Below are positions 9,263 through 54,804 of a stretch of 64,000 nt of DNA, piece after piece (within the stretch, counting starts at the first letter, position 1; every line of letters begins with the position of its first letter). The stretch covers positions 10,723-74,722 of the forward strand of contig DAIRUQ010000002.1 in NCBI GenBank assembly GCA_036803245.1, in the 5' to 3' direction. The translations under genes and the position numbers were made by a program. The stretch is from Chloroflexota bacterium (GTDB lineage: Bacteria > Chloroflexota > Anaerolineae > UBA1429). The notes under the pieces are model-generated. The model had not been told where the DNA came from. It worked only from the letters and a program-made list of their open reading frames with translations, and did no database searches.

Positions 9263-11698
<2,436 letters not shown>

Positions 11699-39068: not shown

Positions 39069-39100
39069 CCAACCCCCGACCGCGACTCTACTTCCTGCTC

Positions 39101-39275: not shown

Positions 39276-39305
39276 CGTTCCCGCCGTTGCAGACGGGAGG
39301 TTGTT

Positions 39306-39689: not shown

Positions 39690-39716
39690 CCGCCAACAGT
39701 AGCATTGGAGAGCATC

Positions 39717-40493: not shown

Positions 40494-40504
40494 GAGCGAG
40501 GCCC

Positions 40505-41320: not shown

Positions 41321-43124
41321 TCGCTGCGACGTCCTGATCATCGGCGGCGGCGGGGCGGCGCTGCGGGCGGCCATCGCTGCTCACGAGGCGAATCGCTCGC
41401 TGGGCATCCTGCTCGTCACCAAGGGTACCCTCGGCGCCAGCGGCGTAACCGCCACGGCTTGCTCTGACCGCATGGCGTTTCACGCCACCCTCCCCACCAC
41501 CGAGCCTGGCGGCCCCGACGCCTGGCGCTATCATGCTGACGATATCTATCGCATCGGCGGCTATGTGAGCGACTGGGATCTGGCCGAGGTGCTGGCGCGT
41601 GAGGCCGCGGGAGCCTTTACCTACCTCGAGTCGCTAGGCGTGCCCTGGGCACGCAACCCCGACGGCAGCCCAGCGCAGTTTGTCACCGATGGCTCAGCCT
41701 ATGCCCGCGCCTGCTACACGGGGCCACACACCGCCAACGAGATCGAGGCCGCCCTGCTGGCGCGGTTGCGGCAGCTTCCCGTTCGCGTGCGCGAACACAC
41801 CATGGTCGCCGAGCTGCTGCGCGATAGCAACGGCGACCTAAGCGGCGCCATCCTCGTATCCGAAGCAGCGCCGGTAGCCGCCATCGTCTCCGCTCCTACA
41901 GTAATCCTGGCGACCGGGGGCGCCGGTCGTGCCTTTGCGGTCAACGTCTTCCCGCCCGACTGCACCGGCGACGGCTATGCCATGGCGTTTCGGGCCGGCG
42001 CCGAGCTGGTCAATCTAGAGTTCATCCAGTTTGGCCTCTGTTCTCTGGCGACGGGGCTGGCCTGCTCGGGAAGCATGATGCGGGCGCTGCCGCGACTGGT
42101 CAACGACCTGGATGAGCCGTTCTTGCAACGCTATCTCGGCCCCGAGCAGCGCAATACGGCTTGCGATCTTCTCTACGCCAAAGGCGCCAGCTGGCCCGTC
42201 TCCTGGGAAGAGCCCACCCACATCATCGACATCGCGGTCTCGGCCGAGCTAGCCCGCGGCCGGCGCGTGTACCTGGACTATGGACGGAATCCGGTCGGGT
42301 ATGCACCGACCGCGCTGGCCCAGCAGATTCGCCGTTGGTACCAGGATCGGGGCTATGCGCTCACCCCCACGGACACCCCGCTGGATCGGTTGCGGGCCAT
42401 CAATCCCCAGTCGATCGCCTGGCTGGCCGAACGGGGCCTGGATCTCGCTCGCGACGCCGCCATCGAAATTGCACCGGCGGCCCAGCACTTTCAGGGGGGC
42501 GTCAAGATCGGCCCAGATGGCGGCACCAGCGTACCAGGCCTCTATGCCGCCGGCGAGGCCGCAGGAGGACAGCACGGCGCCAACCGGCCGGGCGGCAACG
42601 CTCTGCTGGATAGCCAGGTCTTTGGGGGGATCGCGGGGCGATCAGCCGCGGCGAGAGCCTCGGCCACGGCGACGCCGGAGACGCCGGCGCACACAGACCC
42701 GCTGGAGGTCATCGCCAGCATGACCGGCGCACGGGGAGCATCGCCCACGGCCGTGATCGAGCAGGTTGGCCAGTGCATGTCAGCCACCTGCGCCGTCCAC
42801 CGAACCAAAGCGGGGCTCTTGCAGGCTCTGGCCAAGCTCGACGCACTGCTGCGCCAGGGTGTGGCCTTGGATGCGAATCAGCCCAACCTCTCGCTGGAGG
42901 CGATCAACGTGCTTCAGGTGGCCAGCCTGGTGATTCGAGCCGCGCTGGGCCGCGATGAAAGCCGCGGTCCCCATCTCCGCTTTGCCGACGAGCAAAGCAC
43001 CGCGCCGCACCCGCGCGATGACGCGCGCTGGTGTCGCTACCAGGTGCTAGAGGCCGATCGCGTTGGACGCCCCTGGCGTGGTGTCCGCATCGCTATACGA
43101 GAACCCGTTCGTAAGCCTGGCTAG
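41259..43124 (+). CDS. FAD-dependent oxidoreductase of the succinate dehydrogenase/fumarate reductase/L-aspartate oxidase flavoprotein family
   Basis: CDVLIIGGGGAALRAAIAA dinucleotide-binding motif and a C-terminal GLYAAGEAAGGQHGANRPGGNALLDSQVFG motif. Start is uncertain; the listed ATG overlaps the upstream gene by 62 nt. Confidence 0.8.
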   Translation: MAKSAISARSWEVALRNGPPDRCDVLIIGGGGAALRAAIAAHEANRSLGILLVTKGTLGASGVTATACSDRMAFHATLPTTEPGGPDAWRYHADDIYRIGGYVSDWDLAEVLAREAAGAFTYLESLGVPWARNPDGSPAQFVTDGSAYARACYTGPHTANEIEAALLARLRQLPVRVREHTMVAELLRDSNGDLSGAILVSEAAPVAAIVSAPTVILATGGAGRAFAVNVFPPDCTGDGYAMAFRAGAELVNLEFIQFGLCSLATGLACSGSMMRALPRLVNDLDEPFLQRYLGPEQRNTACDLLYAKGASWPVSWEEPTHIIDIAVSAELARGRRVYLDYGRNPVGYAPTALAQQIRRWYQDRGYALTPTDTPLDRLRAINPQSIAWLAERGLDLARDAAIEIAPAAQHFQGGVKIGPDGGTSVPGLYAAGEAAGGQHGANRPGGNALLDSQVFGGIAGRSAAARASATATPETPAHTDPLEVIASMTGARGASPTAVIEQVGQCMSATCAVHRTKAGLLQALAKLDALLRQGVALDANQPNLSLEAINVLQVASLVIRAALGRDESRGPHLRFADEQSTAPHPRDDARWCRYQVLEADRVGRPWRGVRIAIREPVRKPG

Positions 43125-43142: not shown

Positions 43143-43883
43143 TCACTCCAGCCTCTCCAGCGCCCGCCGCACTTTTTGGACGCAGGCGTCAGTCTGGCAC
43201 ATGATCTCTGCCCGCGAGAGGTACAGCCACACCCAGGCCATCTGGTCAACGTCGGCAGAGGCATAAGCCAGCGTCGCTTCAGACACGGTCTCGCCGGCAC
43301 AGTCGATGGCCACGCCGCCGCGACGCGCCGGCACCGCCACATCCGCCACACAGTGCCCGTTCTCGTGCAAGAGCACGTGGTCGCGATAGGCATCAAGCCC
43401 CTCTTCGTGCAGCGCCTGCCAGAGCCGATCCTTGGCCGTCTCGCGCAGCCAGAGATCGTTGATCTCGTGCGCCGCCAACAGCCGATCCAGGGTGGTATGG
43501 ATAAAGGTGACGCGGCGTAGCTTGGCCGCGGCGATGGGCCGGGGAAGGCTGTGGAGAGGGCCGAGCTCCAGCTTCAGGTAGCGCTCCTCGGCCCGGGGAT
43601 GGTCGGGCTCATCGGGCAAGAGCTCTCGTCGCGTGGCCAGCCGATACCGCTCGACGGACGCATAGTAGCGAATGCTACAGCCCATCTCGCCAAATCGCGA
43701 GGGATGGTAAAACGCCAGATACTCGGCGCCTACCCGTTCCGGCGCGCGGGCCAGCGGGATGCGGTACCACCGCTCGTCTAGCACGCGCTGCCAGTCCTCC
43801 AGGCGCGGCACGATCGCCACCAGCACCCGCTCGGGATCTCGACCTTCCGCCTCTTCGAGGTACGCCTCGTCCCAGTCCATCAT
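43143..43883 (-). CDS. Hypothetical protein; the C-terminal region may adopt a restriction-endonuclease-like fold
   Basis: Start at MMDWDEAY directly preceded by GGAGGG. No confident family. The C-terminal segment (HENGHCVADVAVPARRGGVAIDCAGE) loosely resembles DUF559/Vsr-like proteins. Confidence 0.5.
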   Translation of the reverse strand: MMDWDEAYLEEAEGRDPERVLVAIVPRLEDWQRVLDERWYRIPLARAPERVGAEYLAFYHPSRFGEMGCSIRYYASVERYRLATRRELLPDEPDHPRAEERYLKLELGPLHSLPRPIAAAKLRRVTFIHTTLDRLLAAHEINDLWLRETAKDRLWQALHEEGLDAYRDHVLLHENGHCVADVAVPARRGGVAIDCAGETVSEATLAYASADVDQMAWVWLYLSRAEIMCQTDACVQKVRRALERLE

Positions 43884-43957
43884 GCCCTCCAACCGGTCCC
43901 AGATGCAGCAACGCCCTCCCAAGAGGGAGGGCGCGCTAGCGGGCTGCGACCGTGGGC

Positions 43958-44989
43958 TCAATCCACGGCGAAAAAGGCGAACCGCATCCCGACATAGACA
44001 AAGTAGAGCACCATCAGATAGATCGCGCCCGCCCTATTCAGGCGTCCCTTGGTAAGCCACAGGATACCCCACAAGATCAACCCCGTGCCAGTCTCCCAGG
44101 GCAGATCCCAACGCACCAGCGGCCCCGGCACCCAGTAGCCCGAAACCAACGCTCCGCCGCCGATGGCGACCAGCGGATTGGTGATATTGCTGCCGATCAG
44201 GGTCCCCAGTGAGATGCCGTGCTCTTTGTTGCCGATGCCCGAGATGGCCGTGCTGAGCTCGGGCAGCGCCGAGGCGATGCCCAGCGTCATCACGCCGATC
44301 AGAGAGCCACTGACCCCCGTGGACTGGACGATCCCTTCGGTGACCCGTAACACCATGTCGGCACTGATGATCGTCACCACCATGGCGGCCATCGCATAGA
44401 GCCCCCAGATAAGCGCCTCGCGGCCCGTCTTGGGGACATCTTCCTCTTTGCCCGCGGCCTCGGCCGGCTCTTCCTTCTGATAGTGCTTGCGCTCATCACG
44501 ATACAGGTAGTAGGTGTACACTATGAACGTACCAAACAGGATCAGCCCATCCCACCGCGAATAGTGGCGATCCCATCCCAGAATGATGCACATGACGGTC
44601 GTGCCGATCATGGGCAGCATGCTCTTCCACAAAAAGTAGCGCCGAAAGTAGAGCGTTCCCGCAAAAAAGACGACCATGCCCAGGATCAATGTCTGCTGGA
44701 CCACATCCGAGCCGATATTGGCGCCCAACACAATGGCCGAGGCGATCTTGGGATCCATGGTACCACGCAAGATGCCAGCAGAGGCGGTGAGGTGAGCGGT
44801 GATCTCGGGAATGCTGGTGGCCAAGGAGACCACCGTCATACCCATAAAGGTTGTGGAGAGATCAAAGTAGGTGGCCAGGCCGATGAGGCGTTTAACGGCT
44901 TGATCCGCGGCGGCTATCAGAAACGCTATCCCCACCACGCCAGCGACAATATTGATCCCCAACGGCTGTGTGTGAAGAAAGCTGAACAT
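43958..44989 (-). CDS. Sodium/calcium exchanger (CaCA family) membrane protein
   Basis: 343 aa. Two alpha-repeat regions (GNKEHGISLGTLIGSNITNPLVAIG and GANIGSDVVQQTLILG) and about 10 TM helices. Confidence 0.85.
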   Translation of the reverse strand: MFSFLHTQPLGINIVAGVVGIAFLIAAADQAVKRLIGLATYFDLSTTFMGMTVVSLATSIPEITAHLTASAGILRGTMDPKIASAIVLGANIGSDVVQQTLILGMVVFFAGTLYFRRYFLWKSMLPMIGTTVMCIILGWDRHYSRWDGLILFGTFIVYTYYLYRDERKHYQKEEPAEAAGKEEDVPKTGREALIWGLYAMAAMVVTIISADMVLRVTEGIVQSTGVSGSLIGVMTLGIASALPELSTAISGIGNKEHGISLGTLIGSNITNPLVAIGGGALVSGYWVPGPLVRWDLPWETGTGLILWGILWLTKGRLNRAGAIYLMVLYFVYVGMRFAFFAVD

Positions 44990-45151
44990 GTTTTCCCGCC
45001 ATTCCCTATGCGCTTGCTGGCGCCCCCAACCGGCTCGTTTGGCCCGTTACTGTGGATTGCCAAGAAGATAGTATAGATTATTCCGGCCCCGCCTCCAAAA
45101 GCGCCCTAGGGTTGATATTCCCTCCTCTTCAAAGCCTACGAACTCCCCGCG

Positions 45152-45180
45152 TGGACACCCCTTGGGCGCAGCCCTATAAT
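45152..45180 (+). promoter_or_regulatory. Sigma-70-type promoter (TGGACA-17nt-TATAAT) for the 45219 gene
   Basis: Direct read: -35 TGGACA, 17-nt spacer, -10 TATAAT. Sits within an unusually AT-enriched 200-nt intergenic region. Confidence 0.5.
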
Positions 45181-45218
45181 CACCTCGGTAGACTGCACCG
45201 CGAATGAGAGGATATAGC

Positions 45219-46598
45219 ATGGAACAGCTCGAGCTCGTTCGTCAGATCCTGGATGCCTTGCCCCCCCTAGACCATTCTGTGGGCGACCGCCTGCCCTTGT
45301 ACTTGTGGGGCCTACGGGGGATGCCAACCTCCAGCGAAACCATGGCCCGTGAACTGCTTCAGGAGGCCGCTGCGCGAGGGTTGGCCTTTGTGGCGGTGTG
45401 GGACCACGATAATCTGGCCGAGTCGGTGGCCGAGGCCCTCAAGCTGGGACGTCTTCAGCAAGAGCTCGGCCTCAGCATAGGTGCCGACGCCATCAAGCCG
45501 CTTTACGCCTTTTGCGATGGCAGCCCAGAGACGGCCCATGTGGACGAGGCCGGCGAGCCGTTCTTTGATCATTCCCATAGCCCGAACCGCCCCATCGGCT
45601 GCCCGTTTGCCCTAGGCCATCGCTATGCAGAGATCTCTGGCCGCATCCACGCCTTTGCGCAAGCCTACCAAGATGCTGGCCTCCCGCTGGATTTCGTCTA
45701 CAGCGACTGGGAGATCGACGGCCCGCTGGAATGGAACGATGCCTTGGAGCACATCCGCCGCTGTACCCGCTGCCAGGCCGAACTGAGCGACCTGGATGAT
45801 TTCGGTCATGTGCAGCGCACCCTGCGGCGCATCCGGGCCAAGATGCAACGCGAGTGCTTCGCCCAGCCTATCCTGCAGCGCTATCCACGCGCTCTGGTGG
45901 GCAACTATGCCGTGTACAACCACGGCGGGATGCGCTACTGGTACGACTATTTCGAGCGCGTCAATCTCGACCTGCCGCATACATGCGATCAGCGTGAGCC
46001 CTCCCGCCCCTGGGCCCACGAATACCCCGAAACCGGCTATACCTTTGGCATGCCCGTCCTCTACACCTGGTATCGCACGTATGACTGGTATGACTTTGAG
46101 AACGCCGACTATCACTGGTTCTACAACATGCTCAAGGTGGCCAGTAACGCTGGACGCCACAAGCCAGCGGGCCACACTTTGATCACCTTTGTGCACCATA
46201 CGCTCACCGATCCTCCTGAAGGGGGTGCCGAGCCGCATATTCAGCCGATGAGCGTCGAGGCCTACCAGGAGCTCCTCTGGCACGCGCTCCTTCGTGGTCA
46301 CGACGCGTTCTTTTCCTGGAGCCCCAACGACGTCGCGGTACACGAGGCGGTGGTCGCACAGCAAGTCTATAACCAGTCACTGGCCTATGGTGATTTCCTC
46401 GCGCACGGGCAGCCTGTGACTTTTGCCATCCCCCCAGAGCCAGGCACGGTGGTCTCGGCTCTGCGCGCAGGCGGTCGCCTCTTGGTGCGGCGCACCGACT
46501 TTGGGGGCGATGGCCGGCCCCACTCCCTCGTCGTCGATGGCCACCGCATCGAGGTGCCAGCGGCGCCGGGTGTCTGCCAGATCCTCGATCTGCGCTAG
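45219..46598 (+). CDS. Hypothetical protein (about 460 aa), no recognisable family
   Basis: ATG at 45219 with GAGAGG RBS, downstream of a near-consensus TTGACA-like/TATAAT promoter. Rich in W/Y/H. No motif identified. Confidence 0.6.
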   Translation: MEQLELVRQILDALPPLDHSVGDRLPLYLWGLRGMPTSSETMARELLQEAAARGLAFVAVWDHDNLAESVAEALKLGRLQQELGLSIGADAIKPLYAFCDGSPETAHVDEAGEPFFDHSHSPNRPIGCPFALGHRYAEISGRIHAFAQAYQDAGLPLDFVYSDWEIDGPLEWNDALEHIRRCTRCQAELSDLDDFGHVQRTLRRIRAKMQRECFAQPILQRYPRALVGNYAVYNHGGMRYWYDYFERVNLDLPHTCDQREPSRPWAHEYPETGYTFGMPVLYTWYRTYDWYDFENADYHWFYNMLKVASNAGRHKPAGHTLITFVHHTLTDPPEGGAEPHIQPMSVEAYQELLWHALLRGHDAFFSWSPNDVAVHEAVVAQQVYNQSLAYGDFLAHGQPVTFAIPPEPGTVVSALRAGGRLLVRRTDFGGDGRPHSLVVDGHRIEVPAAPGVCQILDLR

Positions 46599-46617
46599 CC
46601 GCGATTGGAGAGGCACC

Positions 46618-47436
46618 ATGTCATACCAAGAGCGAGACCTGATGATCCGCGGCGCCACGTTGCACCTCTACGAAATGGGCGATGCGGGGCCGCTGCTGAT
46701 CCTGGCACACGGCTTTACCGATCACGGCCTCTGCTGGCTGCGTCTCGCTCAAGAGCTGGCCCCCCACGCGCGCGTCGTCATGTACGATGCGCGTGGTCAC
46801 GGGCGCTCGGATTCCCCTCCGACCGCCTTCACCCGCGAGGAGCTGGCCAAGGATCTGGTCGCTCTGGTAGATGCCCTCGGCGGGGAGCCTCCCGTCATCA
46901 TGGGCCATTCCTTGGGAGCGGATACGGCCGCCTGGGCCGCCGCCCTGGCGCCCGAGCGCTTCCTTGCCGTCATCCTGGAAGATCCACCCTGGAATGCGGC
47001 CCTTTATGCCCGCCACGACGCCGAGCGCCGCGCCAGGGCCGACCGCGAGCGGGCCCAAGTCGAGAGCAACCGCGAACGCAGCGTCGGCGAGCTTGAAGCC
47101 TTTATCCGCCAACACTCGCCCAACTGGCACGAGATCGAGTGGCGCACATGGGCGGAAGCCAAGGCTTTGATGGCTCCCGAGGCGGCAGAGATCATTGCCA
47201 GCCCGCGAGCTCCTTGGGAGACTCTAGTCCCACGCATCACCTGCCCCGTGCTCTTGCTCACGGGCGACAACGATCTGGGCGCCCTAACCACGCCCGAGGC
47301 CGCCGCCGAGGTCGTTCGCATAGGGCGTCGTGTTCAGCACGTTCATATTGCCGCTGCCGGCCACTCGTTGCGCCGCGACCAGTTTGAACCTGTTCTGCGA
47401 GCCGTCCAGCAGTTCCTCGGCGATCACGGGAGCTGA
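46618..47436 (+). CDS. Alpha/beta-fold hydrolase
   Basis: Start at MSYQERDL with GGAGAGG RBS. HGFTDHG oxyanion region and GHSLGA nucleophile elbow (GxSxG). Confidence 0.8.
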   Translation: MSYQERDLMIRGATLHLYEMGDAGPLLILAHGFTDHGLCWLRLAQELAPHARVVMYDARGHGRSDSPPTAFTREELAKDLVALVDALGGEPPVIMGHSLGADTAAWAAALAPERFLAVILEDPPWNAALYARHDAERRARADRERAQVESNRERSVGELEAFIRQHSPNWHEIEWRTWAEAKALMAPEAAEIIASPRAPWETLVPRITCPVLLLTGDNDLGALTTPEAAAEVVRIGRRVQHVHIAAAGHSLRRDQFEPVLRAVQQFLGDHGS

Positions 47437-47521
47437 GAACGTTGCGCCCCCTCAAGCAAGCGACTAGACTGGCCCCCGGACGACAGCCCGCAGGCGACAC
47501 GCCGGGGAAGGAGATGGCACC

Positions 47522-48571
47522 GTGAAGCCCTTGCGCCGACATGTAGCCCTGGCCGTTGATGGTGGCGGAATCCGCGGGGCCATGGTCACCAGGGCGCTCT
47601 CTATGCTCGAGGAGCACCTGGGGACGCCGTGTCCCGAGCTGTTTACGCTCGTAGCCGGCACGTCCACCGGTTCGGTCATCGCTGCCGGCATCGGCGCGGG
47701 CATTACGGCGCAGCAGATGCATGCGCTCTATCGCGAGCTGGGAGGCAGCATCTTTCGCAAGAGCTGCCGTTCACGCCTCTGGCCCTTGACGCGGTACCGC
47801 TATCCCATCGAACCGCTGCGCGAGGGGCTGCAGCATGCTCTGGGTGATCTGACCCTGGGCGACCTCTGGTCCGACCAAGGCGGCATCGATCTGGTCATTA
47901 CCGCCTACGATCTGGTGGAGCAACGCACCCGCTTCATCAAGCCCTGGAAGCCCGAGTACGCACAGTGGCCCCTCGCCACAGCCGTTCTGGCCTCGTGCGC
48001 GGTGCCCACCTATTTTCCCGTCGTGGAAGGCCGCTACGTGGATGGTGGCGTAGGCTCGTACGCCAACCCGTGCTATCTCGCCGCCTACGAGATAGCCTTT
48101 TGCCTGGGCTGGGATCCCGCCGAGACCACCTTGATCAGCCTGGGCACCGGTCGGGCCCCGCGCACCCTGCCGTTGGGCGGCGCGGACCGACTGCGCCCCT
48201 GGCAGTGGTTGGGGCCGGTGTTGGATGCTTTCGGGGCCTCGGCCCAAGACCAACAGGTGCATCTGGTCGAGACCTTTTTCGGCGAGCTGGACTTTCGGCG
48301 ATTCCAGGTAGACCTCGAGGCGCCCATCGCCATGGATGATGCCTCAGCGCTCGATCTGCTGGAGAGCTATGGCGAACGACTAGGCCAAAAGCTGCTCAAT
48401 GACGAGCTAGATCAGGCCCAGTTCGTCACCGCGCCGCTAGCGCCCGGCTATCGCCAGCCCGAGCCCACGGACCTACTCAAGCCTCAACCCTCAAGGCCCT
48501 CATCGCTCCCGCTCTGGCTCGTCATGGGAGGGTCGTTGATCGGACTCTGGCGGCAACTACGCAAGCACTGA
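47522..48571 (+). CDS. Patatin-like phospholipase
   Basis: GTG start. LAVDGGGIRG glycine-rich motif and GTSTGS (GxSxG with catalytic Ser). A DGG-type Asp region follows. Confidence 0.85.
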   Translation: MKPLRRHVALAVDGGGIRGAMVTRALSMLEEHLGTPCPELFTLVAGTSTGSVIAAGIGAGITAQQMHALYRELGGSIFRKSCRSRLWPLTRYRYPIEPLREGLQHALGDLTLGDLWSDQGGIDLVITAYDLVEQRTRFIKPWKPEYAQWPLATAVLASCAVPTYFPVVEGRYVDGGVGSYANPCYLAAYEIAFCLGWDPAETTLISLGTGRAPRTLPLGGADRLRPWQWLGPVLDAFGASAQDQQVHLVETFFGELDFRRFQVDLEAPIAMDDASALDLLESYGERLGQKLLNDELDQAQFVTAPLAPGYRQPEPTDLLKPQPSRPSSLPLWLVMGGSLIGLWRQLRKH

Positions 48572-48605
48572 GTGAAATCGCATCGATCTAGAAGGAGTCT
48601 CTAGC

Positions 48606-49820
48606 ATGAACACAGATCGTCTCGCCCAACAAGCCCTCGACCAAGGACAGGGGATACTACGCCTGGCCCCCACCTGGGTACCCCGCTCGTTCTGCATCCC
48701 TGGCCGCCGACTCAAGCTGGACCCGCGCGATCTCTATGCCTTTGGCGCCATCCGCGGGGGCATCGACGAGCGGTGGTTCGCATCGACCACGCCGGCGGAC
48801 AATGGCCCGCTGACCACCCCTGATGAGGGGCTGAGCTATGCGGTGTTGCAGGATGGTGCCGAGACCAAGCGCGTGCTCCTCCGCGACGCCGTGGAAAGCC
48901 TGAAAGATGCGTTGCTCGGCGAGAGGCTCTGGTCACAGTACGGCCGTTGGCCCATGTTCTCCAAGTTCTTTGACAACCAAGGCGCGCTGCCGCACCACCT
49001 CCATCAACGCAAAAAGCATGCCGAGGCGGTAGGCGAGAGGCCCAAGCCGGAAGCCTATTACTTTCCACGGCAGGTCAACAACCACGGCGGGGACTTTCCC
49101 TTTACGTTCTTTGGGCTCAAGCCCGGCACCACCCGCGAAGACCTGATCGCCTGCCTACGCCGTTGGGACCAGGGCGACAATGGCATCCTGGGGCTCTCAC
49201 AGGCTTACAAGCTAGAGCTAGGCGCTGGCTGGGATGTCCCGGCCGGCGTTCTGCATGCGCCTGGTAGCCTCTGCACCTATGAGCCGCAGGGCGATAGCGA
49301 CGTCTTTTCCATGTTCCAGTCGCTGGTGAACGACGTTCCCACACCGTGGGAGAACCTCGTCAAGAACGTGCCGGAAGCTCACAAGCAGGACCTCGACTAT
49401 ATCGTGGATATGGTCGATCTGTCCGCCAACCTCGACCCAGACTTTGCCCGCAACCGCGCCATGACGCCGCAGCCGATCGGCGATCCTGCTGTCACTGCCG
49501 AGGAAGGCTATGTTGACCAGTGGATCGCCTACCGCTGCGCAGACTTTTCGGCCAAGGAGACCACCATTCTGCCCGGGGCCACGGCCACGCTCGTGGATCA
49601 AGCCTGTTACGGGCTGATCATGCTGCAGGGGCATGGCCAGATGGGTCCGTGGCAGGTAGAGTCGCCGAGCCTGATCCGGTTTGGGCAACTCACCAACGAC
49701 GAGTTCTTTGTCAGCGAGGCAGCCGCCAGAGCCGGCGTCGTCGTCACCAACCCCAGCGACTGTGATCCGCTCGTGATGTTGCGGCACTATGGACCCGGCA
49801 ACCCGGATCTGACGATCTAG
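48606..49820 (+). CDS. Hypothetical protein, possibly a type I phosphomannose-isomerase-like cupin
   Basis: 404 aa. Weak resemblance to class I mannose-6-phosphate isomerase motifs (ERWFAST..., HHLHQRKKHAE, VLHAPGS). The assignment is speculative. Confidence 0.5.
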   Translation: MNTDRLAQQALDQGQGILRLAPTWVPRSFCIPGRRLKLDPRDLYAFGAIRGGIDERWFASTTPADNGPLTTPDEGLSYAVLQDGAETKRVLLRDAVESLKDALLGERLWSQYGRWPMFSKFFDNQGALPHHLHQRKKHAEAVGERPKPEAYYFPRQVNNHGGDFPFTFFGLKPGTTREDLIACLRRWDQGDNGILGLSQAYKLELGAGWDVPAGVLHAPGSLCTYEPQGDSDVFSMFQSLVNDVPTPWENLVKNVPEAHKQDLDYIVDMVDLSANLDPDFARNRAMTPQPIGDPAVTAEEGYVDQWIAYRCADFSAKETTILPGATATLVDQACYGLIMLQGHGQMGPWQVESPSLIRFGQLTNDEFFVSEAAARAGVVVTNPSDCDPLVMLRHYGPGNPDLTI

Positions 49821-49876
49821 CGGATCGCGGAGGGGCGCTCGAGCGAGCGCCCCTCCATCTCCAAAGGGGGAGTTGC

Positions 49877-50764
49877 ATGCCTGACCAGGCGGTCGCACAG
49901 CCCTATCCCTCGCCCAAGCCTACCCGGCAGGAGCGGCTAGCCGGCGTGGATGGATGCACCCTGTTCTATCAGACTTGGGAACCCGCTGCGAACGCTCGCG
50001 CCCTGGTGATCATCTGCCCAGGCATCGACGATCACTGCGACCGCTACCCGCACCTAGTTCGCGCACTGCTCGCAGAAGGCTATGCCGTATTGGCCTACGA
50101 TCACCGGGGCAACGGGCGCTCCGAGGGAGCGCGCATGCACGTCGATAGCTTTGACCAGTACGTGCGCGATCTGGATCTCGTGCGAGAGCGAGCGCTAGGC
50201 CTCTGGCGGGGCATCCCCTGGTTCCTCTTTGCCCATAGCATGGGCACGACAGTGGCGCTCACCTACCTGGCCGAGGGTCTATCGCCGCCGCGAGGGCTGA
50301 TCGCCTCGGGCACGGCCTTGGCGGCCGGTACAGGGTTCCCTCCCGTCATGTTGGCGCTTAACCGCAGCTTGGCGCGCATCGCGCCCCGCCTGCGTTTGGT
50401 GGGATTGCCTCGCGAGGGCATCTCGCGTGACGCGGACTGGAGCGCATGGGGAGATATCGATCCGCTGGTTGCCCGCCAACGCGCTACGGCTCGACTCGGG
50501 AACGAGCTTCTGACCGCGCTCGAGCGTTTGCGGGCCCAACTGGATCGGATCTCTGTGCCGCTGCTGATCCTGCATGGCACCGCGGACCAGTTGACGGATC
50601 CGCAAGGGGCTCGCTTGCTCCATGACCAGGCATCCAGCCCCGACAAGTCGCTGCGCCTCTACCAAGATGCGTACCATGAGGTCGTGAACGATCTGCCAGA
50701 GACGCGTGAAGCCGTCCTTTGTGACATTCTTGCCTGGCTGGGCGAGCGAGTCACCCTCAGGTGA
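49877..50764 (+). CDS. Alpha/beta-fold hydrolase (lysophospholipase/monoacylglycerol lipase-like)
   Basis: HRGNGRSEG and FAHSMGTTVAL (GxSxG), with a C-terminal HGTADQLTD...YHEV matching the Asp/His positions of the triad. Confidence 0.8.
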   Translation: MPDQAVAQPYPSPKPTRQERLAGVDGCTLFYQTWEPAANARALVIICPGIDDHCDRYPHLVRALLAEGYAVLAYDHRGNGRSEGARMHVDSFDQYVRDLDLVRERALGLWRGIPWFLFAHSMGTTVALTYLAEGLSPPRGLIASGTALAAGTGFPPVMLALNRSLARIAPRLRLVGLPREGISRDADWSAWGDIDPLVARQRATARLGNELLTALERLRAQLDRISVPLLILHGTADQLTDPQGARLLHDQASSPDKSLRLYQDAYHEVVNDLPETREAVLCDILAWLGERVTLR

Positions 50765-50825
50765 TGGCGCTTTGTCGGCCCGCCCGTCGCATGGTAGAAT
50801 CCAACCGCAGCCGCTCGGTCGCAGT

Positions 50826-50898
50826 GGGCCCATAGCTCAGTGGTAAGAGCGACCGGCTCATAACCGGTTGGTCCCTGGTTCGAGCCCAGGTGGGCCCA
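50826..50898 (+). tRNA. tRNA with CAU anticodon (elongator tRNA-Met, or tRNA-Ile2 if lysidinylated); 3' CCA not encoded
   Basis: Acceptor GGGCCCA/UGGGCCC with a G1-C72 pair (so not an initiator), discriminator A. Anticodon stem ACCGG/CCGGU with loop CUCAUAA. T-arm CCUGGUUCGAGCCCAGG. Confidence 0.85.
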
Positions 50899-50944
50899 CT
50901 CCCCTATCACCAGCGACACCACAATCCAAGGACTCGAGGCATCC

Positions 50945-51736
50945 ATGACCACCCCAACCAGATGGCTGCATACCGTCGTCCTGGCTGGTGGCCCGGCAGA
51001 GCCCGATCCGCTTTCGGTCGAGGCGGGGGTCGCCACCAAGGCGTTGCTCCCCATCGCTGGCCGCCCCATGGTCGCGCATGTATTGCAGGCCCTCCAGCGT
51101 TGCGACGCGATCGGCCCCATCACAGTCGTCGGCCTGGAGGCGTCGCTCCTCGAGGTGATCTGCGAGGGGCCTCCTCTGCGCTGCCTACCTAACCATCACG
51201 GCATCGTCGACAATATCCTGGCGGCCACAGAGGGACTGGATGATGCCACACCGGTCCTTGTAGTTTCAGCCGATATCCCCCTCTTGACGCCCGAGGCAGT
51301 ATCGAGCTTTATTCAGAGTGCCGAGCTATCAGGCGGTGAGCTGTGCTATGCCGTCGTGGAACGTGCGGTGATGGAGGCACGGTTCCCCGGCTCTGGTCGG
51401 TCCTTTCGTCACACCCGTGAGGGAGACTTTGCTGGGGGCGACCTGTTCTTGGCCACCCCCCGCCTATTTCGTACCCATGCCGGGCTGGCGCGAGGGCTGT
51501 CCGATCAGCGCAAGAGCGCCTGGGGGCTGGCGCGTCTGTTGGGGTTAGGCGTTCTGTGGCGGCTGGCCACGCGCCGCCTGACGATCCGCAGCCTGGAGGC
51601 GCGCGCCAGCACGTTGCTGGGCTGTGACTGCAAAGCGATCATCTCCGAGCACCCCGAGCTGGCGATGGATGTGGACAAGCCACACCAGTTGACCATGATC
51701 CGCCACGCCCTGACCTTGCCCGCTGACACCAGATGA
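50945..51736 (+). CDS. MobA-like nucleotidyltransferase-domain protein
   Basis: HTVVLAGGPAEPD...KALLPIAGRPMVAHVLQAL resembles the NTP_transf_3 (MobA/CofC-like) N-terminus. Overlaps the next gene by 4 nt. Confidence 0.65.
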   Translation: MTTPTRWLHTVVLAGGPAEPDPLSVEAGVATKALLPIAGRPMVAHVLQALQRCDAIGPITVVGLEASLLEVICEGPPLRCLPNHHGIVDNILAATEGLDDATPVLVVSADIPLLTPEAVSSFIQSAELSGGELCYAVVERAVMEARFPGSGRSFRHTREGDFAGGDLFLATPRLFRTHAGLARGLSDQRKSAWGLARLLGLGVLWRLATRRLTIRSLEARASTLLGCDCKAIISEHPELAMDVDKPHQLTMIRHALTLPADTR

Positions 51737-52272
51737 CTGGAGCCCTTTCTGACCAGCCTTGCTCGGGGTTGCTGGACGCTGATACCCGCCTGTCGGCAGC
51801 TCTGCGTAGCCCCCTGAAGGGACGCCCTCGGCTGGCCCGATTCGCCGCAATCGTCGCCCACAGCGGGGATGGCCTCCTATGCTACCTGACCATGGCGATC
51901 ATCGGTCTCCGGGCTCCGCTGGCTCGCCCAGCCCTGTGGCGGACGGTCTTGGCCACGCTGGTGGCCGCGGCCATCGTGGCGGCGGGCAAGATGGCGTTCC
52001 GTCGCTCCCGCCCGCTGGGAGACGAGAGCGCCCGCTGGAGCTCTCTGGGCAAGCATGATGCCCATGCGTTTCCTTCCGGCCACGCCGCTCGCACCGCGGC
52101 CATCGCCACCATGGCCTGGGCGGCATCGCCTCACCTGGGCCTGGCGACAACCGCCTGGTGCCTAGCGGTTAGCCTGAGCCGCGTCATGCTGGGAGCCCAC
52201 TATCTGGGCGACGTTGTCGCGGGCACGCTGGTCGGCGTGGTCGCGGGCCTAGCCGTTTCCTGGCTCGCCTAA
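51733..52272 (+). CDS. PAP2-family phosphatase (phosphatidic acid phosphatase type 2 superfamily), membrane protein
   Basis: KMAFRRSRP, PSGH (FPSGHAARTAA) and HYLGDVVAG match the three PAP2 motifs (KxxxxxxRP, PSGH, SRxxxxxHxxxD). Confidence 0.85.
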   Translation: MTGALSDQPCSGLLDADTRLSAALRSPLKGRPRLARFAAIVAHSGDGLLCYLTMAIIGLRAPLARPALWRTVLATLVAAAIVAAGKMAFRRSRPLGDESARWSSLGKHDAHAFPSGHAARTAAIATMAWAASPHLGLATTAWCLAVSLSRVMLGAHYLGDVVAGTLVGVVAGLAVSWLA

Positions 52273-52345: not shown

Positions 52346-53587
52346 CTAGAGATAGTCCCGGAGTTGTCGCGCGCGGCTGGGATGCCGCAGCCGGTCCAGC
52401 GCTTCGTGCTCGATCTGACGGATGCGCTCACGCGTCAGCTTGAACTTGCGCCCCACCTCTTCCAAAGTGTAGCTGTGGCCATCCTGTAGCCCAAAGCGCA
52501 TGCGCAGGATCCGCGCCTCGCGCGGCGTCAACGTCGTCAGCACGTCGTCCAGGCGCTCTTGCAGCAGGTGCTGGTAGGCCGTATCCGGCGGCGTCGGCGC
52601 CTCGTCATCGGGGATAAAGCTTCCCAGCTCGCTATCCTCTTCCTCGCCAACCGGCTTTTCCAGCGACAGCGGTCGCTGCGATACCTTGAGCATCCACTGC
52701 ACCTTGGCGGCCGGTAGGCTCAGCTCCTCGGCGATTTCCTCAGGGGTGGGCTGTCGCCCCCAATCCTGCTCGAGCTGCTGCGCCACCTGATAGACCTTGC
52801 GGATTCGATCGCTCAGATGCACCGGCAGACGGATCACGCGGCCCTGATCCGCCAAGGCACGGGTGATGGACTGGCGGATCCACCAGGTCGCATAGGTGCT
52901 GAACCGGTGGCCCCGATGGTAGTCGAACTTTTCGACGGCCTTGATCAGGCCCAGGTTCCCCTCCTGGATCAGATCCAGGAACGGCACGCCCTGCCCTAGG
53001 TAACGCTTGGCGATGCTCACCACCAGGCGCGTGTTTGCCTTGATCAGGTGCGCTCGGGCGTTCTCGCCACGCACCGCAAGCCGAGCGAGGTCGTCACGGG
53101 CGTCCTCGTCGAGGTCGTGATTCGTGTCGAGACGCTTCTGTGCCTCCAGGCCCTGCTCAAGCGCCTTTGAGAGGGACACCTCTTCCTCGGCTGTAAGCAG
53201 AGGTACCCGGGCCATCTCTTTTAGGTATAGGCTAATCGTGTCATCGCTAGAGATCTCGCTCAGATCAAAGCCCTGCCGCTTGCGATTGAGCAGATCATCA
53301 GCGATGGTGTCTCCATCGTCATCGACGTCCGGCTCCTCTTCAGCCTCGACGGCGGCCAGCGCAGCCGCGTCGTCGGCGCCAGCATGCTCGCCACGGTCAT
53401 AGATGATCTCAACGCCTTGCTTGTCCAGCAAGGTAAGCAAGTCCTCTAGCTCCGTGAGGCAGTCCTCGACGTCAGGAAAGACCTCCATCATGTCGTCGAG
53501 CGTAACAAAGCCCTGGCGCTCGCCCTTGGCTACGAGTCCCTTTACGGCCGGGTTCGCCTCCAAGCAGAGTTGTGTGTTGTCTGTCAT
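52346..53587 (-). CDS. rpoD: RNA polymerase primary sigma factor (sigma-70)
   Basis: 413 aa. Regions 1.2 to 4 including [40 protein letters not shown] (region 2) and a region 4 helix-turn-helix ([20 protein letters not shown]). Confidence 0.95.
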
Positions 53588-53679: not shown

Positions 53680-54057
53680 GGGAAGCATCTGCCAGCGCGT
53701 GATTGCATCACCCTACCACCGCCGGCCTCTTTCTAGACCGTCACGGGTACTCTGTACCCTGCACCGGCCAACCTCTCCTCACGGGAAGGCACCTCTATCC
53801 TACTACGCTGTAGCTCTATATGTCAAGTCCCAGCCTCGTAAAGACCGTGCCGATTGCTCGCGTGTGGCATACCATCGGCGCAACGATGCGTCGATGCCGA
53901 CACACGAGCAACTCATTATACCATACGAGCGACACCCTGTCCACTATTCGGTTGGGAGCAAAACCACTCAGTTCGGGCTCGCAGCGGTTACATTGTGACT
54001 GGCCCATCGCCGTGCTATACTCAGCCGCATAGGCTGTCGACAGGGAGATACCCACGC

Positions 54058-54804
54058 GTGGCGAAAAAGCTTGGCAAACACACACCCTATTTTGAGCTGC
54101 TTGAGGCCCAGGCAAAGGCCGGATGCCCCCTATGCCGCTTAGTCTACCGTGCCACCGACCGCTACCTCGATAGCTTGCTCTATGAGGCGGTCCTGGATCC
54201 GGATGTTCGCGACAAGCTCAAGCAATCCCAAGGGTTCTGCCGAGAGCATGTGGCCATGCTTAGCCGCCAACCGGGGCGGGCCCTTGGCATCGCCCTCATC
54301 TACCGCGACATAGTGCGGGATCTGTCCGTCGGCCTTCACAAAGCGCAGATCCAAGAACGAGGATGGATCGATCGGCTACGGGAGCGCCTGCCCTGGCATC
54401 GGCGCCAGGCCACGCTGCCGGCCACCCGTCAGTGTCCCGCATGCGACATCGCCCAGCGCCACCAGGATAGCTATATTGAGCTGCTGCTGGCCCACCTCGA
54501 CGACGTCAAGCTGAGCGCCGCCTACGCAGAGGGAGAGGGGCTCTGCCTGGATCATCTCATCCTCGCCATCGACCGCGCCCCCGACCAGGCCACTGTCCAG
54601 CGGCTTGTCCAGCCGCAGATCGAGCGCTATACGGTGATGCTCCATCATCTCGACGAGTTCATCCGCAAGCGTGATCACCGTTTCCGCCACGAGCCGATGG
54701 GCGAAGAGGGCGACGTCTGGCTGCGGGCCATGAACGCAGTGGCTGGCGGCGCCGGGCTGGGCCTATCACCCAAAAGCGGCGGCCGCCAGACCGAGGACGT
54801 CTAG
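54058..54804 (+). CDS. Hypothetical zinc-binding protein with an internally duplicated CxxC-(N~35)-CxxH module
   Basis: GTG at 54058 with AGGGAG RBS and a TTGTGA-17-TATACT promoter upstream. Motifs CPLCRL...CREH and CPACDI...CLDH. Transcribed divergently from rpoD. Confidence 0.6.
   Translation: MAKKLGKHTPYFELLEAQAKAGCPLCRLVYRATDRYLDSLLYEAVLDPDVRDKLKQSQGFCREHVAMLSRQPGRALGIALIYRDIVRDLSVGLHKAQIQERGWIDRLRERLPWHRRQATLPATRQCPACDIAQRHQDSYIELLLAHLDDVKLSAAYAEGEGLCLDHLILAIDRAPDQATVQRLVQPQIERYTVMLHHLDEFIRKRDHRFRHEPMGEEGDVWLRAMNAVAGGAGLGLSPKSGGRQTEDV

What the first reader, a model, noticed from the sequence alone, without database searches (positions are those of the whole stretch)
45152..50764. Promoter-to-tRNA block of five co-oriented genes: two unknown proteins, a patatin-like phospholipase and two alpha/beta hydrolases
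From a near-consensus promoter in an unusually AT-rich intergenic region to tRNA-Met(CAU), five same-strand genes are separated by only 19 to 85 nt. They are an unknown 460-aa W/Y/H-rich protein, an alpha/beta hydrolase, a patatin-like phospholipase, an unknown 404-aa protein with faint type I phosphomannose-isomerase/cupin-like motifs, and a lysophospholipase-like alpha/beta hydrolase. Three predicted lipid esterases surrounding two proteins of unknown function suggest an uncharacterised (glyco)lipid remodelling or degradation module. The two unknown proteins matched nothing I could recognise and are the novelty. I checked for a CBASS-like arrangement (patatin effector plus nucleotidyltransferase) but there is no CD-NTase-like gene adjacent.
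Basis: partly seen in the sequence, partly recalled or inferred. Interest (0 to 1): 0.6.

Follow-up and report, generated by a model that had tools for sequence, protein, structure and literature searches.

The report
Lineage-specific gene string, not lipid module
Five same-strand genes in an uncultured Anaerolineae genome are real and probably share a promoter, but they sit together only in close relatives, so they are not a conserved lipid module; the two "unknown" proteins have sugar-enzyme folds and belong to large unstudied families.

Summary
Five + strand genes (45219-50764) are separated by 19, 85, 34 and 56 nt. They follow an 11/12 sigma-70-like promoter and precede tRNA-Met(CAU).

The five-gene order occurs only in Anaerolineales relatives with at least 75% P1 identity, and it is eroding even there. 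The patatin gene is deleted to a 90-aa remnant in a 90% relative. In a 75% relative an extra gene is inserted and the last hydrolase is absent. In 75 other P1 loci and 80 P4 loci from many phyla, the only other block gene within 10 kb is one patatin gene, non-adjacent to P1, in L006.

Neither unknown protein looks lipid-related. P1 models confidently as a TIM barrel plus beta-sandwich resembling glycoside hydrolases, and its relatives sit beside GH123, GH106 and GH116 genes. P4 has a type I phosphomannose-isomerase fold and retains the matching catalytic positions. In 42 of 65 loci elsewhere it lies with aldose-1-epimerase-like, xylose-isomerase-like TIM and Gfo/Idh/MocA genes.

A structurally conserved hairpin after P4 suggests the transcription unit ends there. 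Overall interest is modest. The P4 family is the most worthwhile lead.

The parts
45152..45180 (+). Sigma-70-type promoter-like site, TGGACA-17-TATAAT
   Evidence: It matches 11 of 12 consensus positions. The -35 GTGGAC, the -10 TAyAAT and the 17-nt spacing are conserved in L002, L003 and L004, while the flanking intergenic sequence has diverged. Function is inferred, not shown.
45219..46598 (+). P1: 459-aa protein of an unannotated family, with a glycoside-hydrolase-like (beta/alpha)8 barrel plus a C-terminal beta-sandwich
   Evidence: No Pfam, NCBIfam or PDB sequence hit. The AlphaFold model has pLDDT 92.7 and pTM 0.93. The best Foldseek PDB matches are GH29, GH36, GH164, GH30 and GH35, with E 1e-7 to 1e-5 and TM 0.35-0.47. 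More than 1146 homologues are all labelled hypothetical. Neighbours elsewhere include GH123, GH116, DUF2961, sulfatase and GH106.
46618..47436 (+). ABH2: generic serine alpha/beta hydrolase (GHSLG nucleophile motif)
   Evidence: Abhydrolase_1 at 3e-27. The PDB relatives are a mix of esterases, epoxide hydrolases and C-C hydrolases with E of about 1e-15 or weaker. The motif is shown.
47522..48571 (+). Patatin-like phospholipase, CapV-like, with a hydrophobic C-terminal tail
   Evidence: Patatin at 8e-22. It has GGIRG at residue 15, GTSTG at 46 and DGG at 174. It hits the PADLOC CBASS phospholipase effector profile at 1.8e-46. NCBIfam CBASS_lipase scores 118 bits, below the 200-bit cutoff. PDB CapV-type chains score 5e-14. 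The N-terminus from the GTG start is conserved in L004 and L005.
48606..49820 (+). P4: 404-aa type I phosphomannose-isomerase-like bicupin of an unannotated, very large and highly conserved family
   Evidence: No Pfam hit. There is a faint PMI hit over residues 87-141. The model has pLDDT 78.9. Foldseek gives E 5e-15 and TM 0.58-0.60 against Salmonella PMI, and also hits 1qwr and 1pmi. hhalign against E. coli ManA aligns K120 to K86, H131 to Q97 and H133 to H99. The motifs PKPE149 and LH217AP resemble ManA HKPE134 and PH255AY, and all of these residues are invariant in alignment A2. All 8000 scored candidates are homologues at E <= 0.001, so the family is at least that large, and identity is 56-90% across phyla.
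49829..49856 (+). 12-bp perfect GC-rich hairpin starting 9 nt after the P4 stop codon, with no U-tract
   Evidence: The 76-nt junction folds at -39.8 kcal/mol with z -3.7, and 0 of 200 shuffles fold as well. Perfect stems of different sequence lie in the same position in L002, L004 and L005. No comparable structure is found at the other junctions. A role as terminator, attenuator or stabiliser is inferred.
49877..50764 (+). ABH5: monoacylglycerol-lipase-family alpha/beta hydrolase
   Evidence: Hydrolase_4 at 2e-65. It matches human MGLL 3jw8 at 1e-43, M. tuberculosis MGL 6eic at 1e-40 and another monoacylglycerol lipase entry (7p0y) at 2e-41, nearly full length. An HSMG nucleophile motif is visible in the translation.
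50772..50800 (+). Weaker promoter-like site, TTGTCG-17-TAGAAT with an upstream TG, just ahead of the tRNA
   Evidence: It matches 9 of 12 positions. It suggests the tRNA has its own promoter. This is inferred.
50826..50899 (+). tRNA-Met (anticodon CAT)
   Evidence: Called by ARAGORN. It is kept in the same place in L002.

Best explanation
The block is a lineage-specific string of functionally heterogeneous, native chromosomal genes in an uncultured Anaerolineae bacterium. It is not a conserved pathway module. Transcription most likely starts at the conserved sigma-70-type promoter at 45152-45180 and runs through P1, ABH2, the patatin gene and P4 to a structurally conserved GC hairpin at 49829-49856. 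ABH5 would then be read by leakage through that hairpin, and the tRNA from its own promoter. Each gene belongs to a family with its own separate evolutionary context. P1 is a cytoplasmic member of an uncharacterised glycoside-hydrolase-like TIM-barrel family. I infer that it cleaves a glycosidic bond, with unknown substrate. ABH2 is an unspecific serine esterase or hydrolase. The patatin protein is a catalytically intact CapV-like phospholipase A of a family that is a stand-alone gene in every relative examined. P4 is a metal-dependent aldose-ketose isomerase built on the type I PMI scaffold, with His-x-His, Lys-Pro-Glu and His in the ligand and catalytic positions. In other phyla it works in a cytoplasmic operon with an aldose-1-epimerase-like protein, a xylose-isomerase-like TIM-barrel enzyme and a Gfo/Idh/MocA oxidoreductase, so it probably acts on a free sugar in an oxidoreductive sugar or glycoside pathway. 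ABH5 is a monoacylglycerol lipase. What is shown: gene content, folds, motifs, conservation of the promoter and hairpin, and the presence or absence of synteny. What is inferred: co-transcription, the reactions catalysed, and the absence of a shared pathway.
For: Synteny. tblastn and phmmer of the five proteins against 80 P1 loci from GTDB genomes and 80 P4 loci from metagenomes find the five-gene order only in L001-L005, where P1 identity is at least 75% and all are Anaerolineales. L006 (56%) has P1 and a patatin gene 2.5 kb apart, with unrelated genes between them. None of the other 75 P1 loci or the 80 P4 loci has any of the other four genes within 10 kb. Decay within the clade. In L002 (90%) the patatin gene is reduced to a 90-aa remnant. 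L004 has an inserted 199-aa gene and no ABH5. L003 has a different ORF after ABH2. Further Anaerolineae P1 loci at 54-57% identity lack the partners, and so do P4 loci at about 70%. Patatin homologues at about 65% identity are stand-alone genes with variable neighbours. P1: model and fold hits; neighbours are GH123 in 9-10 of 70 loci, plus GH116, DUF2961, sulfatase and GH106, the last overlapping P1 by 4 nt; one relative is fused to a GH42M-like domain. P4: fold and catalytic positions. Partners lie within 3 genes in 42 of 65 loci: XylIso-like 35, Gfo/Idh/MocA 29, DUF4432 23 and DUF1080 18. DUF4432 matches the aldose-1-epimerase-like structure 3ty1 at 3e-19. These partner families include the components of the published 3-keto-glycoside pathway (bioRxiv 10.1101/2024.03.25.586180; PMC8121099). 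ABH5 matches MGL structures. The promoter is conserved and the hairpin is conserved in structure. GC3 is uniform across the genes.
Against: Short gaps, a shared strand, one conserved promoter and Shine-Dalgarno sites are what a real operon looks like, and co-transcribed genes often share a theme. Synteny loss over large distances does not exclude a clade-specific pathway. The five activities can be arranged into a plausible glycoglycerolipid breakdown route. Only 80 loci per family were sampled, the best-scoring ones. ORFs in the loci were called by a simple longest-ORF rule. No expression data exist. The xylose-isomerase-like partner of P4 has no close solved relative, so the link to the published 3-keto-glycoside enzymes holds only at Pfam-family level.
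Confidence: 0.6

Rival explanations
1. This is the reader's hypothesis made specific: a clade-specific glycoglycerolipid catabolic operon. The patatin enzyme and the monoacylglycerol lipase (with ABH2) strip the acyl chains from a glycosyl-diacylglycerol. P1 hydrolyses the resulting glycosyl-glycerol. P4 isomerises the released aldose to a ketose for central metabolism.
For: The genes are tightly spaced, co-oriented and behind one conserved promoter. The patatin has an intact catalytic dyad and ABH5 is a clear MGL homologue. P1 is glycosidase-like and P4 is isomerase-like. GH123, the commonest P1 neighbour elsewhere, is known from my own knowledge as a glycosphingolipid beta-N-acetylgalactosaminidase family. 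L006 again has P1 and a patatin gene within 2.5 kb.
Against: Outside the at-least-75%-identity clade the only co-occurrence of any pair is P1 with a non-adjacent patatin gene in L006. The patatin gene is deleted in a 90% relative while the rest of the block stays intact, and ABH5 is absent in a 75% relative. In L006, P1 and the patatin gene are separated by an RRM-protein gene and other ORFs. The strong conserved context of P4 is oxidoreductive sugar metabolism, not lipids. A conserved hairpin separates ABH5 from the rest.
Confidence: 0.17
2. P4 is simply the housekeeping mannose-6-phosphate isomerase of these bacteria. It would be a divergent type I PMI feeding GDP-mannose and cell-envelope synthesis, and its position in the block has no meaning.
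For: It has the PMI fold, with residues matching K86, H99, K132, E134 and H255 of ManA. Identity is 56-70% across phyla. In other Anaerolineae it stands alone among cell-wall and housekeeping genes such as PBP, LytR, Rho, sigma-70 and FtsH.
Against: In 42 of 65 loci it is linked to aldose-1-epimerase-like, xylose-isomerase-like and Gfo/Idh/MocA genes. That pattern points to a free sugar in a catabolic route rather than a sugar phosphate. The first metal ligand is His rather than Gln. It fails the Pfam and NCBIfam PMI models. A phosphate-binding arginine equivalent could not be identified.
Confidence: 0.15
3. The patatin gene is an orphan or degenerate CBASS-type anti-phage effector, and the block is a defence-island remnant.
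For: The best PADLOC and NCBIfam hits are CBASS phospholipase effectors, and the nearest solved structures are CapV-type. The gene is lost in a close relative, as accessory defence genes often are.
Against: There is no cyclase or other defence-protein hit in the five genes or two of their neighbours (43143-43961 and 50945-51736). The score is below the NCBIfam cutoff, 118 against 200 bits. The family is conserved at about 65% identity across Anaerolineae as a single gene in varied housekeeping contexts, without cyclases. Codon composition is native.
Confidence: 0.05

Closest known systems
Type I phosphomannose isomerase (ManA; PDB 3h1m/5zv0, 1pmi, 1qwr), compared with P4
   Same: Same bicupin fold (Foldseek E 5e-15, TM about 0.6). 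The aligned segment carries the K86 equivalent and the x-H ligand motif. KPE and H-A motifs sit at the positions of E134 and H255. The length is similar, about 400 aa.
   Different: Sequence identity is about 13%. P4 fails the Pfam and NCBIfam PMI models. The Gln97 ligand is replaced by His. Spacing between ligands is shorter (16 and 68 residues against 35 and 121). The genomic partners are an aldose-1-epimerase-like protein, a xylose-isomerase-like TIM enzyme and Gfo/Idh/MocA, not mannose metabolism genes.
3-keto-glycoside (oxidation-elimination-hydration) pathway clusters, AL1-AL4 / BT2156-BT2159 (bioRxiv 10.1101/2024.03.25.586180; PMC8121099), compared with the usual context of the P4 family
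   Same: The Pfam families are the same: Gfo/Idh/MocA oxidoreductase, 'sugar phosphate isomerase' TIM barrel (AP_endonuc_2) and DUF1080. A cytochrome c protein is sometimes present.
   Different: The published clusters contain no PMI-like cupin and no DUF4432 protein (one search found no cupin or epimerase mention). The TIM-barrel partner of P4 has no detectable sequence match to any solved structure, including the published lyases. In this window, none of these partners lies near P4.
TIM-barrel glycoside hydrolases with a C-terminal beta-sandwich (GH29, GH36, GH164, GH30, GH35, GH42-like), compared with P1
   Same: (beta/alpha)8 barrel followed by a beta-sandwich. Invariant acidic residues follow barrel strands, for example D163-W-E165-x-D167. 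About half of the aligned homologues carry hydrophobic, signal-peptide-like N-termini. Neighbours are carbohydrate-active enzymes. One relative is fused to a GH42M-like domain.
   Different: There is no sequence match to any Pfam, NCBIfam or PDB entry, even with a profile. TM scores are only 0.35-0.47. The catalytic residues are not assignable. An invariant trio C128, C182 and C185 suggests a metal site of unknown role.
CBASS CapV patatin effectors, compared with the patatin gene
   Same: They are the best profile and structure relatives. The Ser-Asp dyad and oxyanion motif are present.
   Different: There is no CD-NTase partner. The score is below the curated cutoff. The family is widely conserved as a stand-alone gene in Anaerolineae. 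This copy has an extra hydrophobic C-terminal tail of about 40 aa.
Monoacylglycerol lipases (human MGLL, M. tuberculosis Rv0183), compared with ABH5
   Same: Near full-length homology at E 1e-40 to 1e-44. Hydrolase_4 scores 221 bits.
   Different: Substrate specificity was not tested. ABH5 scores far below the NCBIfam equivalog cutoffs for lysophospholipase L2 and BipL.

Membership tests
Conserved operon or functional gene module (the five genes as one unit) | Gene set and order are kept across divergent genomes | tested here: not met
   The set is together only in L001-L005, where P1 identity is at least 75%. None of 75 further P1 loci or 80 P4 loci has any partner within 10 kb. More Anaerolineae loci also lack the partners.
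Conserved operon or functional gene module (the five genes as one unit) | Components are retained together within the clade that has them | tested here: not met
   The patatin gene is deleted to a remnant in L002 (90%). L004 (75%) has an inserted gene and no ABH5.
Conserved operon or functional gene module (the five genes as one unit) | Co-transcription from one promoter | not testable with these tools
   The promoter is conserved and the gaps are short. However, a conserved hairpin lies between P4 and ABH5. RNA data are needed.
CBASS | A CD-NTase cyclase is encoded next to the effector | tested here: not met
   No PADLOC hit in the other four block genes or in the two neighbours scanned, 43143-43961 and 50945-51736. 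Pfam domains of the neighbours are unrelated.
CBASS | The effector reaches the curated CapV/CBASS_lipase model cutoff | tested here: not met
   NF041079 scores 117.7 bits against a cutoff of 200. The PADLOC effector profile does match, at 1.8e-46.
Patatin-like phospholipase (PF01734) | Pfam domain above the gathering score, GGxR/KG oxyanion motif, GxSxG serine and DG[GA] aspartate | tested here: met
   78.9 bits against a cutoff of 27.7. GGIRG at 15, GTSTG at 46 and DGG at 174.
Type I phosphomannose isomerase | Sequence-family membership (Pfam or NCBIfam PMI models) | tested here: not met
   No Pfam hit at E <= 1. NF011710 gives E 0.21 and 10 bits against a cutoff of 571.
Type I phosphomannose isomerase | Bicupin PMI fold | tested here: met
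   Foldseek E 5e-15 and TM 0.58-0.60 against Salmonella PMI. It also hits 1qwr, 1zx5 and 1pmi.
Type I phosphomannose isomerase | Metal ligands Gln/His, His, Glu and His, and the catalytic lysines | tested here: inconclusive
   K120, H131 and H133 align to K86, Q97 and H99 by HMMER and hhalign. E149, K147 and H217 are assigned only by motif resemblance. All are invariant in A2. No residue-level structural superposition was available.
Type I phosphomannose isomerase | Man6P/Fru6P isomerase activity | not testable with these tools
   An enzyme assay or manA complementation is needed.
3-keto-glycoside pathway cluster | Gfo/Idh/MocA oxidoreductase plus TIM-barrel lyase (plus DUF1080) adjacent to the gene | tested here: not met
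   In this window there is no Gfo/Idh/MocA, DUF4432 or DUF1080 gene at all, and the only xylose-isomerase-like match is at 19551-20297. For P4 homologues elsewhere the feature is met in 42 of 65 loci.
Glycoside hydrolase (P1) | (beta/alpha)8 catalytic barrel resembling known GH families | tested here: met
   Model pLDDT 92.7. All the top Foldseek hits are glycosidases, although TM is only 0.35-0.47.
Glycoside hydrolase (P1) | Identifiable catalytic acid/base and nucleophile; membership of a CAZy family | tested here: inconclusive
Monoacylglycerol lipase / Hydrolase_4 (ABH5) | Full-length homology to characterised MGLs and a serine nucleophile motif | tested here: met
   3jw8 at 1e-43 and 6eic at 1e-40 over residues 2-292. 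PF12146 scores 220.8 bits. HSMG is visible in the translation.

The most novel reading that the evidence does not exclude
The P4 family would be a previously unrecognised metal-dependent sugar isomerase that forms the missing cytoplasmic step of a widespread oxidoreductive sugar or glycoside pathway. The family is large (all 8000 scored candidates matched at 90% clustering), has no Pfam model, and shows 56-90% identity across Chloroflexota and other phyla; named hits include Armatimonadota, Planctomycetota and Hydrogenedentota. Its usual operon is aldose-1-epimerase-like DUF4432, then P4, then a xylose-isomerase-like TIM enzyme, then Gfo/Idh/MocA, often with DUF1080 and a cytochrome c protein. 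Separately, P1 would found a new glycoside hydrolase family. In this Anaerolineae lineage the two would have been recruited, together with lipases, into a glycolipid-degrading operon.
Probability: 0.12. Interest if true: 0.6.

Novelty: new variant of a known kind. Interest (0 to 1): 0.3.

Why it matters
The five-gene 'lipid module' should not be carried forward as a system. It is a local gene arrangement in one Anaerolineales lineage. The work did expose two large protein families without any annotation. One is a PMI-fold isomerase-like family tightly linked in many phyla to the enzyme families of the recently described 3-keto-glycoside route. The other is a glycosidase-like TIM-barrel family found next to GH123, GH106 and GH116 genes. 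Characterising either would annotate thousands of 'hypothetical proteins' in polysaccharide-degrading environmental bacteria. For P4, it might also add a step to an emerging non-Koshland glycoside catabolic pathway.

Tried and rejected
1. The CBASS reading was rejected. No cyclase or other defence hit was found in the block genes or the two neighbours scanned with PADLOC, the patatin scores below the CBASS_lipase cutoff, and its homologues are stand-alone genes in housekeeping contexts.
2. A profile search of the P1 alignment against PDB sequences gave only chance-level hits to NmrA-like and unc-80 proteins.
3. A profile search of the P4 alignment against PDB sequences added nothing beyond the same 55-residue PMI segment.
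5. An HMMER profile search of 1.84 billion representatives with the P1 alignment returned 359 clusters. These included a more distant sister group of similar length and a few fusions. Pfam scans of 10 of them gave only one weak GH42M/GLMA_2nd hit in a fusion partner, so there is no bridge to a named family.
6. Literature searches for DUF4432 and for PMI-like or cupin proteins in 3-keto pathways found nothing relevant.
7. The xylose-isomerase-like partner of P4 has no solved relative by sequence, so identity with the published 3-keto-glucoside lyases could not be claimed.
8. Recent horizontal transfer of the block was considered and rejected on uniform GC3.
9. Canonical intrinsic terminators at the gene junctions were looked for. 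None has a U-tract. Only the hairpin between P4 and ABH5 stands out.

Full report
OBSERVATION. The five + strand ORFs are present as described. They are:
- P1, 45219-46598, 459 aa
- ABH2, 46618-47436, 272 aa from the ATG that has a Shine-Dalgarno sequence
- patatin, 47522-48571, GTG start, 349 aa
- P4, 48606-49820, 404 aa
- ABH5, 49877-50764, 295 aa

The gaps between genes are 19, 85, 34 and 56 nt. A further 61 nt separate ABH5 from tRNA-Met(CAT) at 50826-50899. Each start codon is preceded by a Shine-Dalgarno-like purine run. The GTG start of the patatin gene is needed to include the GGIRG oxyanion motif, and that N-terminus is conserved in relatives.

The promoter-like site TGGACA-17-TATAAT at 45152-45180 matches 11 of 12 positions. 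An alignment of the intergenic region with three relatives (90%, 75% and 75% P1 identity) shows that the -35 GTGGAC, the -10 TAyAAT and their spacing are kept, while most of the surrounding spacer has diverged. That is a phylogenetic footprint in favour of a real promoter. The spacer has GC 0.568 against 0.643 for the window, which is in the lowest 2% of 229-nt windows but only modestly AT-rich. GC3 is 0.74-0.77 for all five genes and their neighbours, so the block is native.

ORGANISM. The window is 99-100% identical at protein level to an ENA metagenome contig (L001). P1 is 90% identical to the copy in 'Anaerolineae bacterium AnMBR.bin280' (L002). The source is therefore an uncultured Anaerolineae (Chloroflexota) genome.

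THE THREE ANNOTATED ENZYMES.
- ABH2 is a generic serine alpha/beta hydrolase. It scores Abhydrolase_1 at 3e-27 and has a GHSLG motif. Its solved relatives are a mix of esterases, epoxide hydrolases and C-C hydrolases. Nothing about it is lipid-specific.
- The patatin protein has all the defining motifs: GGIRG at 15, GTSTG at 46 and DGG at 174. It resembles CBASS CapV effectors most closely, with PADLOC 1.8e-46 and PDB CapV-type 5e-14. It falls below the NCBIfam cutoff, 118 against 200 bits. No cyclase or other defence protein was detected in the block genes or the neighbours examined.
- The patatin family is about 65% identical across Anaerolineae. In the four distant homologue contexts examined it is a single gene with unrelated neighbours.
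- ABH5 is a clear monoacylglycerol-lipase homologue. It matches human MGLL at 1e-43 and M. tuberculosis MGL at 1e-40, nearly full length.

P1. There is no Pfam, NCBIfam or PDB sequence match, even with a family profile. With a 28-sequence alignment, AlphaFold gives a confident model with pLDDT 92.7 and pTM 0.93. The model is a (beta/alpha)8 barrel followed by a C-terminal beta-sandwich. All the top Foldseek PDB hits are glycosidases (GH29 fucosidase, GH36, GH164, GH30, GH35), but with E 1e-7 to 1e-5 and TM only 0.35-0.47. The fold class is therefore clear, while no close solved relative exists.

Invariant residues include a D163-W-E165-x-D167 motif after a barrel strand, several further acidic residues, and C128, C182 and C185. 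The family has more than 1146 members at 90% clustering, all labelled hypothetical. It collapses to only 359 clusters at 50% identity. About half of the aligned homologues carry hydrophobic, signal-peptide-like N-termini, but this copy does not.

Immediate neighbours in 70 other loci are dominated by carbohydrate-active enzymes. GH123 occurs in 9-10 loci, and GH116, DUF2961, DUF4838, sulfatases and an apiosidase-like protein also appear. In one Anaerolineae contig P1 overlaps a GH106 gene by 4 nt. One relative is fused to a GH42M/GLMA-like domain. I infer that P1 is a glycoside hydrolase of an undescribed family. The catalytic residues and substrate are unknown.

P4. Sequence searches give only a 55-residue marginal hit to type I PMI. 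The model (pLDDT 78.9) matches Salmonella PMI with Foldseek E 5e-15 and TM 0.58-0.60. It also matches B. subtilis, A. fulgidus and Candida PMIs ahead of other bicupins. hhalign against E. coli ManA aligns P4 K120, H131 and H133 with ManA K86, Q97 and H99. The motifs PKPE149 and LH217AP mirror ManA HKPE134 and PH255AY. All of these P4 residues are invariant in the family alignment. P4 is therefore a PMI-scaffold metalloenzyme with a His-for-Gln ligand change.

The family is very large. All 8000 scored candidates were significant, and identity is 56-90% across phyla. It has no Pfam model.

In 80 metagenomic loci P4 has a strongly conserved context. The typical order is [cytochrome c protein]-[DUF1080]-[DUF4432]-[P4]-[xylose-isomerase-like TIM]-[Gfo/Idh/MocA], or alternatively [TIM]-[Gfo]-[P4]. 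At least one partner lies within three genes in 42 of 65 loci that have enough flank. DUF4432 is homologous to an aldose-1-epimerase-like structure (3ty1, 3e-19).

Gfo/Idh/MocA, 'sugar phosphate isomerase' TIM barrels and DUF1080 are the families that carry out the oxidation-elimination-hydration route of glycoside cleavage (bioRxiv 10.1101/2024.03.25.586180; PMC8121099). Those published clusters contain no PMI-like or DUF4432 protein. The TIM partner of P4 has no detectable solved relative, so the link holds only at family level.

A mutarotase-like neighbour argues for a free aldose as substrate; this is an inference. In Anaerolineae at about 70% identity, P4 stands alone among housekeeping genes. 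In this window none of its usual partners is nearby.

SYNTENY TEST.
- I fetched 80 P1 loci from GTDB species genomes, covering many phyla, and 80 P4 loci from metagenomes.
- I searched them with all five proteins by tblastn and phmmer.
- The five-gene order exists only in L001-L005, which are Anaerolineales with P1 identity of at least 75%.
- Even there it is unstable. In L002 (90%) the patatin gene is reduced to a 90-aa fusion of its N- and C-terminal ends, while the other four genes and the tRNA remain. L004 (75%) has an extra 199-aa gene between ABH2 and the patatin gene, and has no ABH5. L003 has a different ORF after ABH2.
- L006 (56%) has P1 and a patatin gene 2.5 kb apart, separated by an RRM-protein gene and other ORFs.
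- None of the remaining 75 P1 loci or the 80 P4 loci has any of the other four genes within 10 kb.
- Three further Anaerolineae P1 contigs also lack the partners, as do two P4 contigs.

TRANSCRIPT ARCHITECTURE. Of the six junctions folded, only the P4-ABH5 spacer has significant structure. It forms a perfect 12-bp GC stem at 49829-49856, 9 nt after the P4 stop codon. The 76-nt junction folds at -39.8 kcal/mol with z -3.7. Relatives L002, L004 and L005 have equally perfect stems of different sequence at the same position, including L004, which lacks ABH5. There is no U-tract, so this is not a canonical intrinsic terminator. The conservation of structure still suggests a transcript end, attenuator or stabiliser after P4. 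The likely unit is therefore promoter, P1, ABH2, patatin, P4 and hairpin. ABH5 would be expressed by read-through. The tRNA would be expressed from its own weaker promoter-like site at 50772-50800. All of this is inferred.

CONCLUSION. The best reading, at about 0.6 confidence, is a lineage-specific and probably co-transcribed string of unrelated functions: a glycosidase-like protein, a generic esterase, a stand-alone CapV-like phospholipase, a PMI-fold sugar isomerase detached from its usual operon, and a monoacylglycerol lipase.

A clade-specific glycoglycerolipid breakdown route remains possible at about 0.17, because the five activities can be ordered into one. It has no comparative support, however. 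Both are known folds in unannotated families, and their contexts point to carbohydrate metabolism rather than lipid metabolism. The P4 family, with its conserved operon, is the lead most worth following.

Noticed in passing
window 49829-49856; L002 about 13887-13932; L004 about 7625-7655; L005 about 4265-4290: A perfect GC-rich hairpin lies immediately after the P4 stop codon. The structure is conserved in four relatives, but the sequence is not. There is no U-tract. It may be a factor-independent terminator of the U-less type, or an mRNA stabiliser.
   Followed up: partly
window 45060-45099: This is a second conserved block in the divergent intergenic region: CCAAG..AGTATA at 45060-45075 and TCCAAA at 45094-45099. 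On the - strand it reads TTTGGA-18-TATACT. It could be the promoter of the divergently transcribed Na/Ca-exchanger gene (43958-44989) or a regulator site.
   Followed up: no
L002 12309-12581: In the 90%-identical relative the patatin gene is reduced to a 90-aa ORF that joins its first 35 or so residues to its C-terminal end. This is a recent internal deletion, and the flanking genes are intact.
   Followed up: partly
L118, L121, L137, L139, L140, L150, L151 and others (P4 at about 10001-11212): A conserved operon recurs in metagenomic contigs: [cytochrome c, about 900 aa]-[DUF1080]-[DUF4432, aldose-1-epimerase-like]-[P4 family]-[xylose-isomerase-like TIM]-[Gfo/Idh/MocA]. SusC/SusD-like genes probably lie upstream in some loci, though this rests on sequence appearance and they were not scanned against Pfam. 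The arrangement is an undescribed elaboration of the 3-keto-glycoside type of cluster.
   Followed up: partly
L170 4029-8377; P0362: In one Anaerolineae contig the P1-family gene overlaps a GH106 gene by 4 nt. Another family member (P0362, 1185 aa) is fused to a region with a GH42 trimerisation/GLMA-like domain.
   Followed up: partly
window 50945-52272: Just after the tRNA lie a MobA-like nucleotidyltransferase gene (NTP_transf_3) and a PAP2 phosphatase gene, overlapping by 4 nt. The pair is conserved with the block in L001 and L002. It may be an envelope or lipid head-group function.
   Followed up: no
window 34868-43124 (+ strand): A cluster resembling a sugar-acid catabolic pathway. It encodes UxuA/xylose-isomerase-like, enolase-superfamily (MR_MLE), RraA-like, formate/nitrite transporter, cyclophilin-like, FAA-hydrolase, a second xylose-isomerase-like TIM and a fumarate-reductase-type flavoprotein.
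   Followed up: no
window 43143-43961 (- strand): A 272-aa ORF with no Pfam or PADLOC hit. It is conserved next to the Na/Ca exchanger gene in L001-L004.
   Followed up: no
window 53854-54804: A DUF6062 protein gene lies next to the primary-type sigma-70 gene (52346-53587, - strand).
   Followed up: no
window 45219-46598 (P1 residues C128, C182, C185): Three invariant cysteines, one pair forming a CxxC in a helix after barrel strand 4, suggest a structural metal site. From memory, this resembles the Cys-Zn site of GH42 beta-galactosidases. It was not tested.
   Followed up: no
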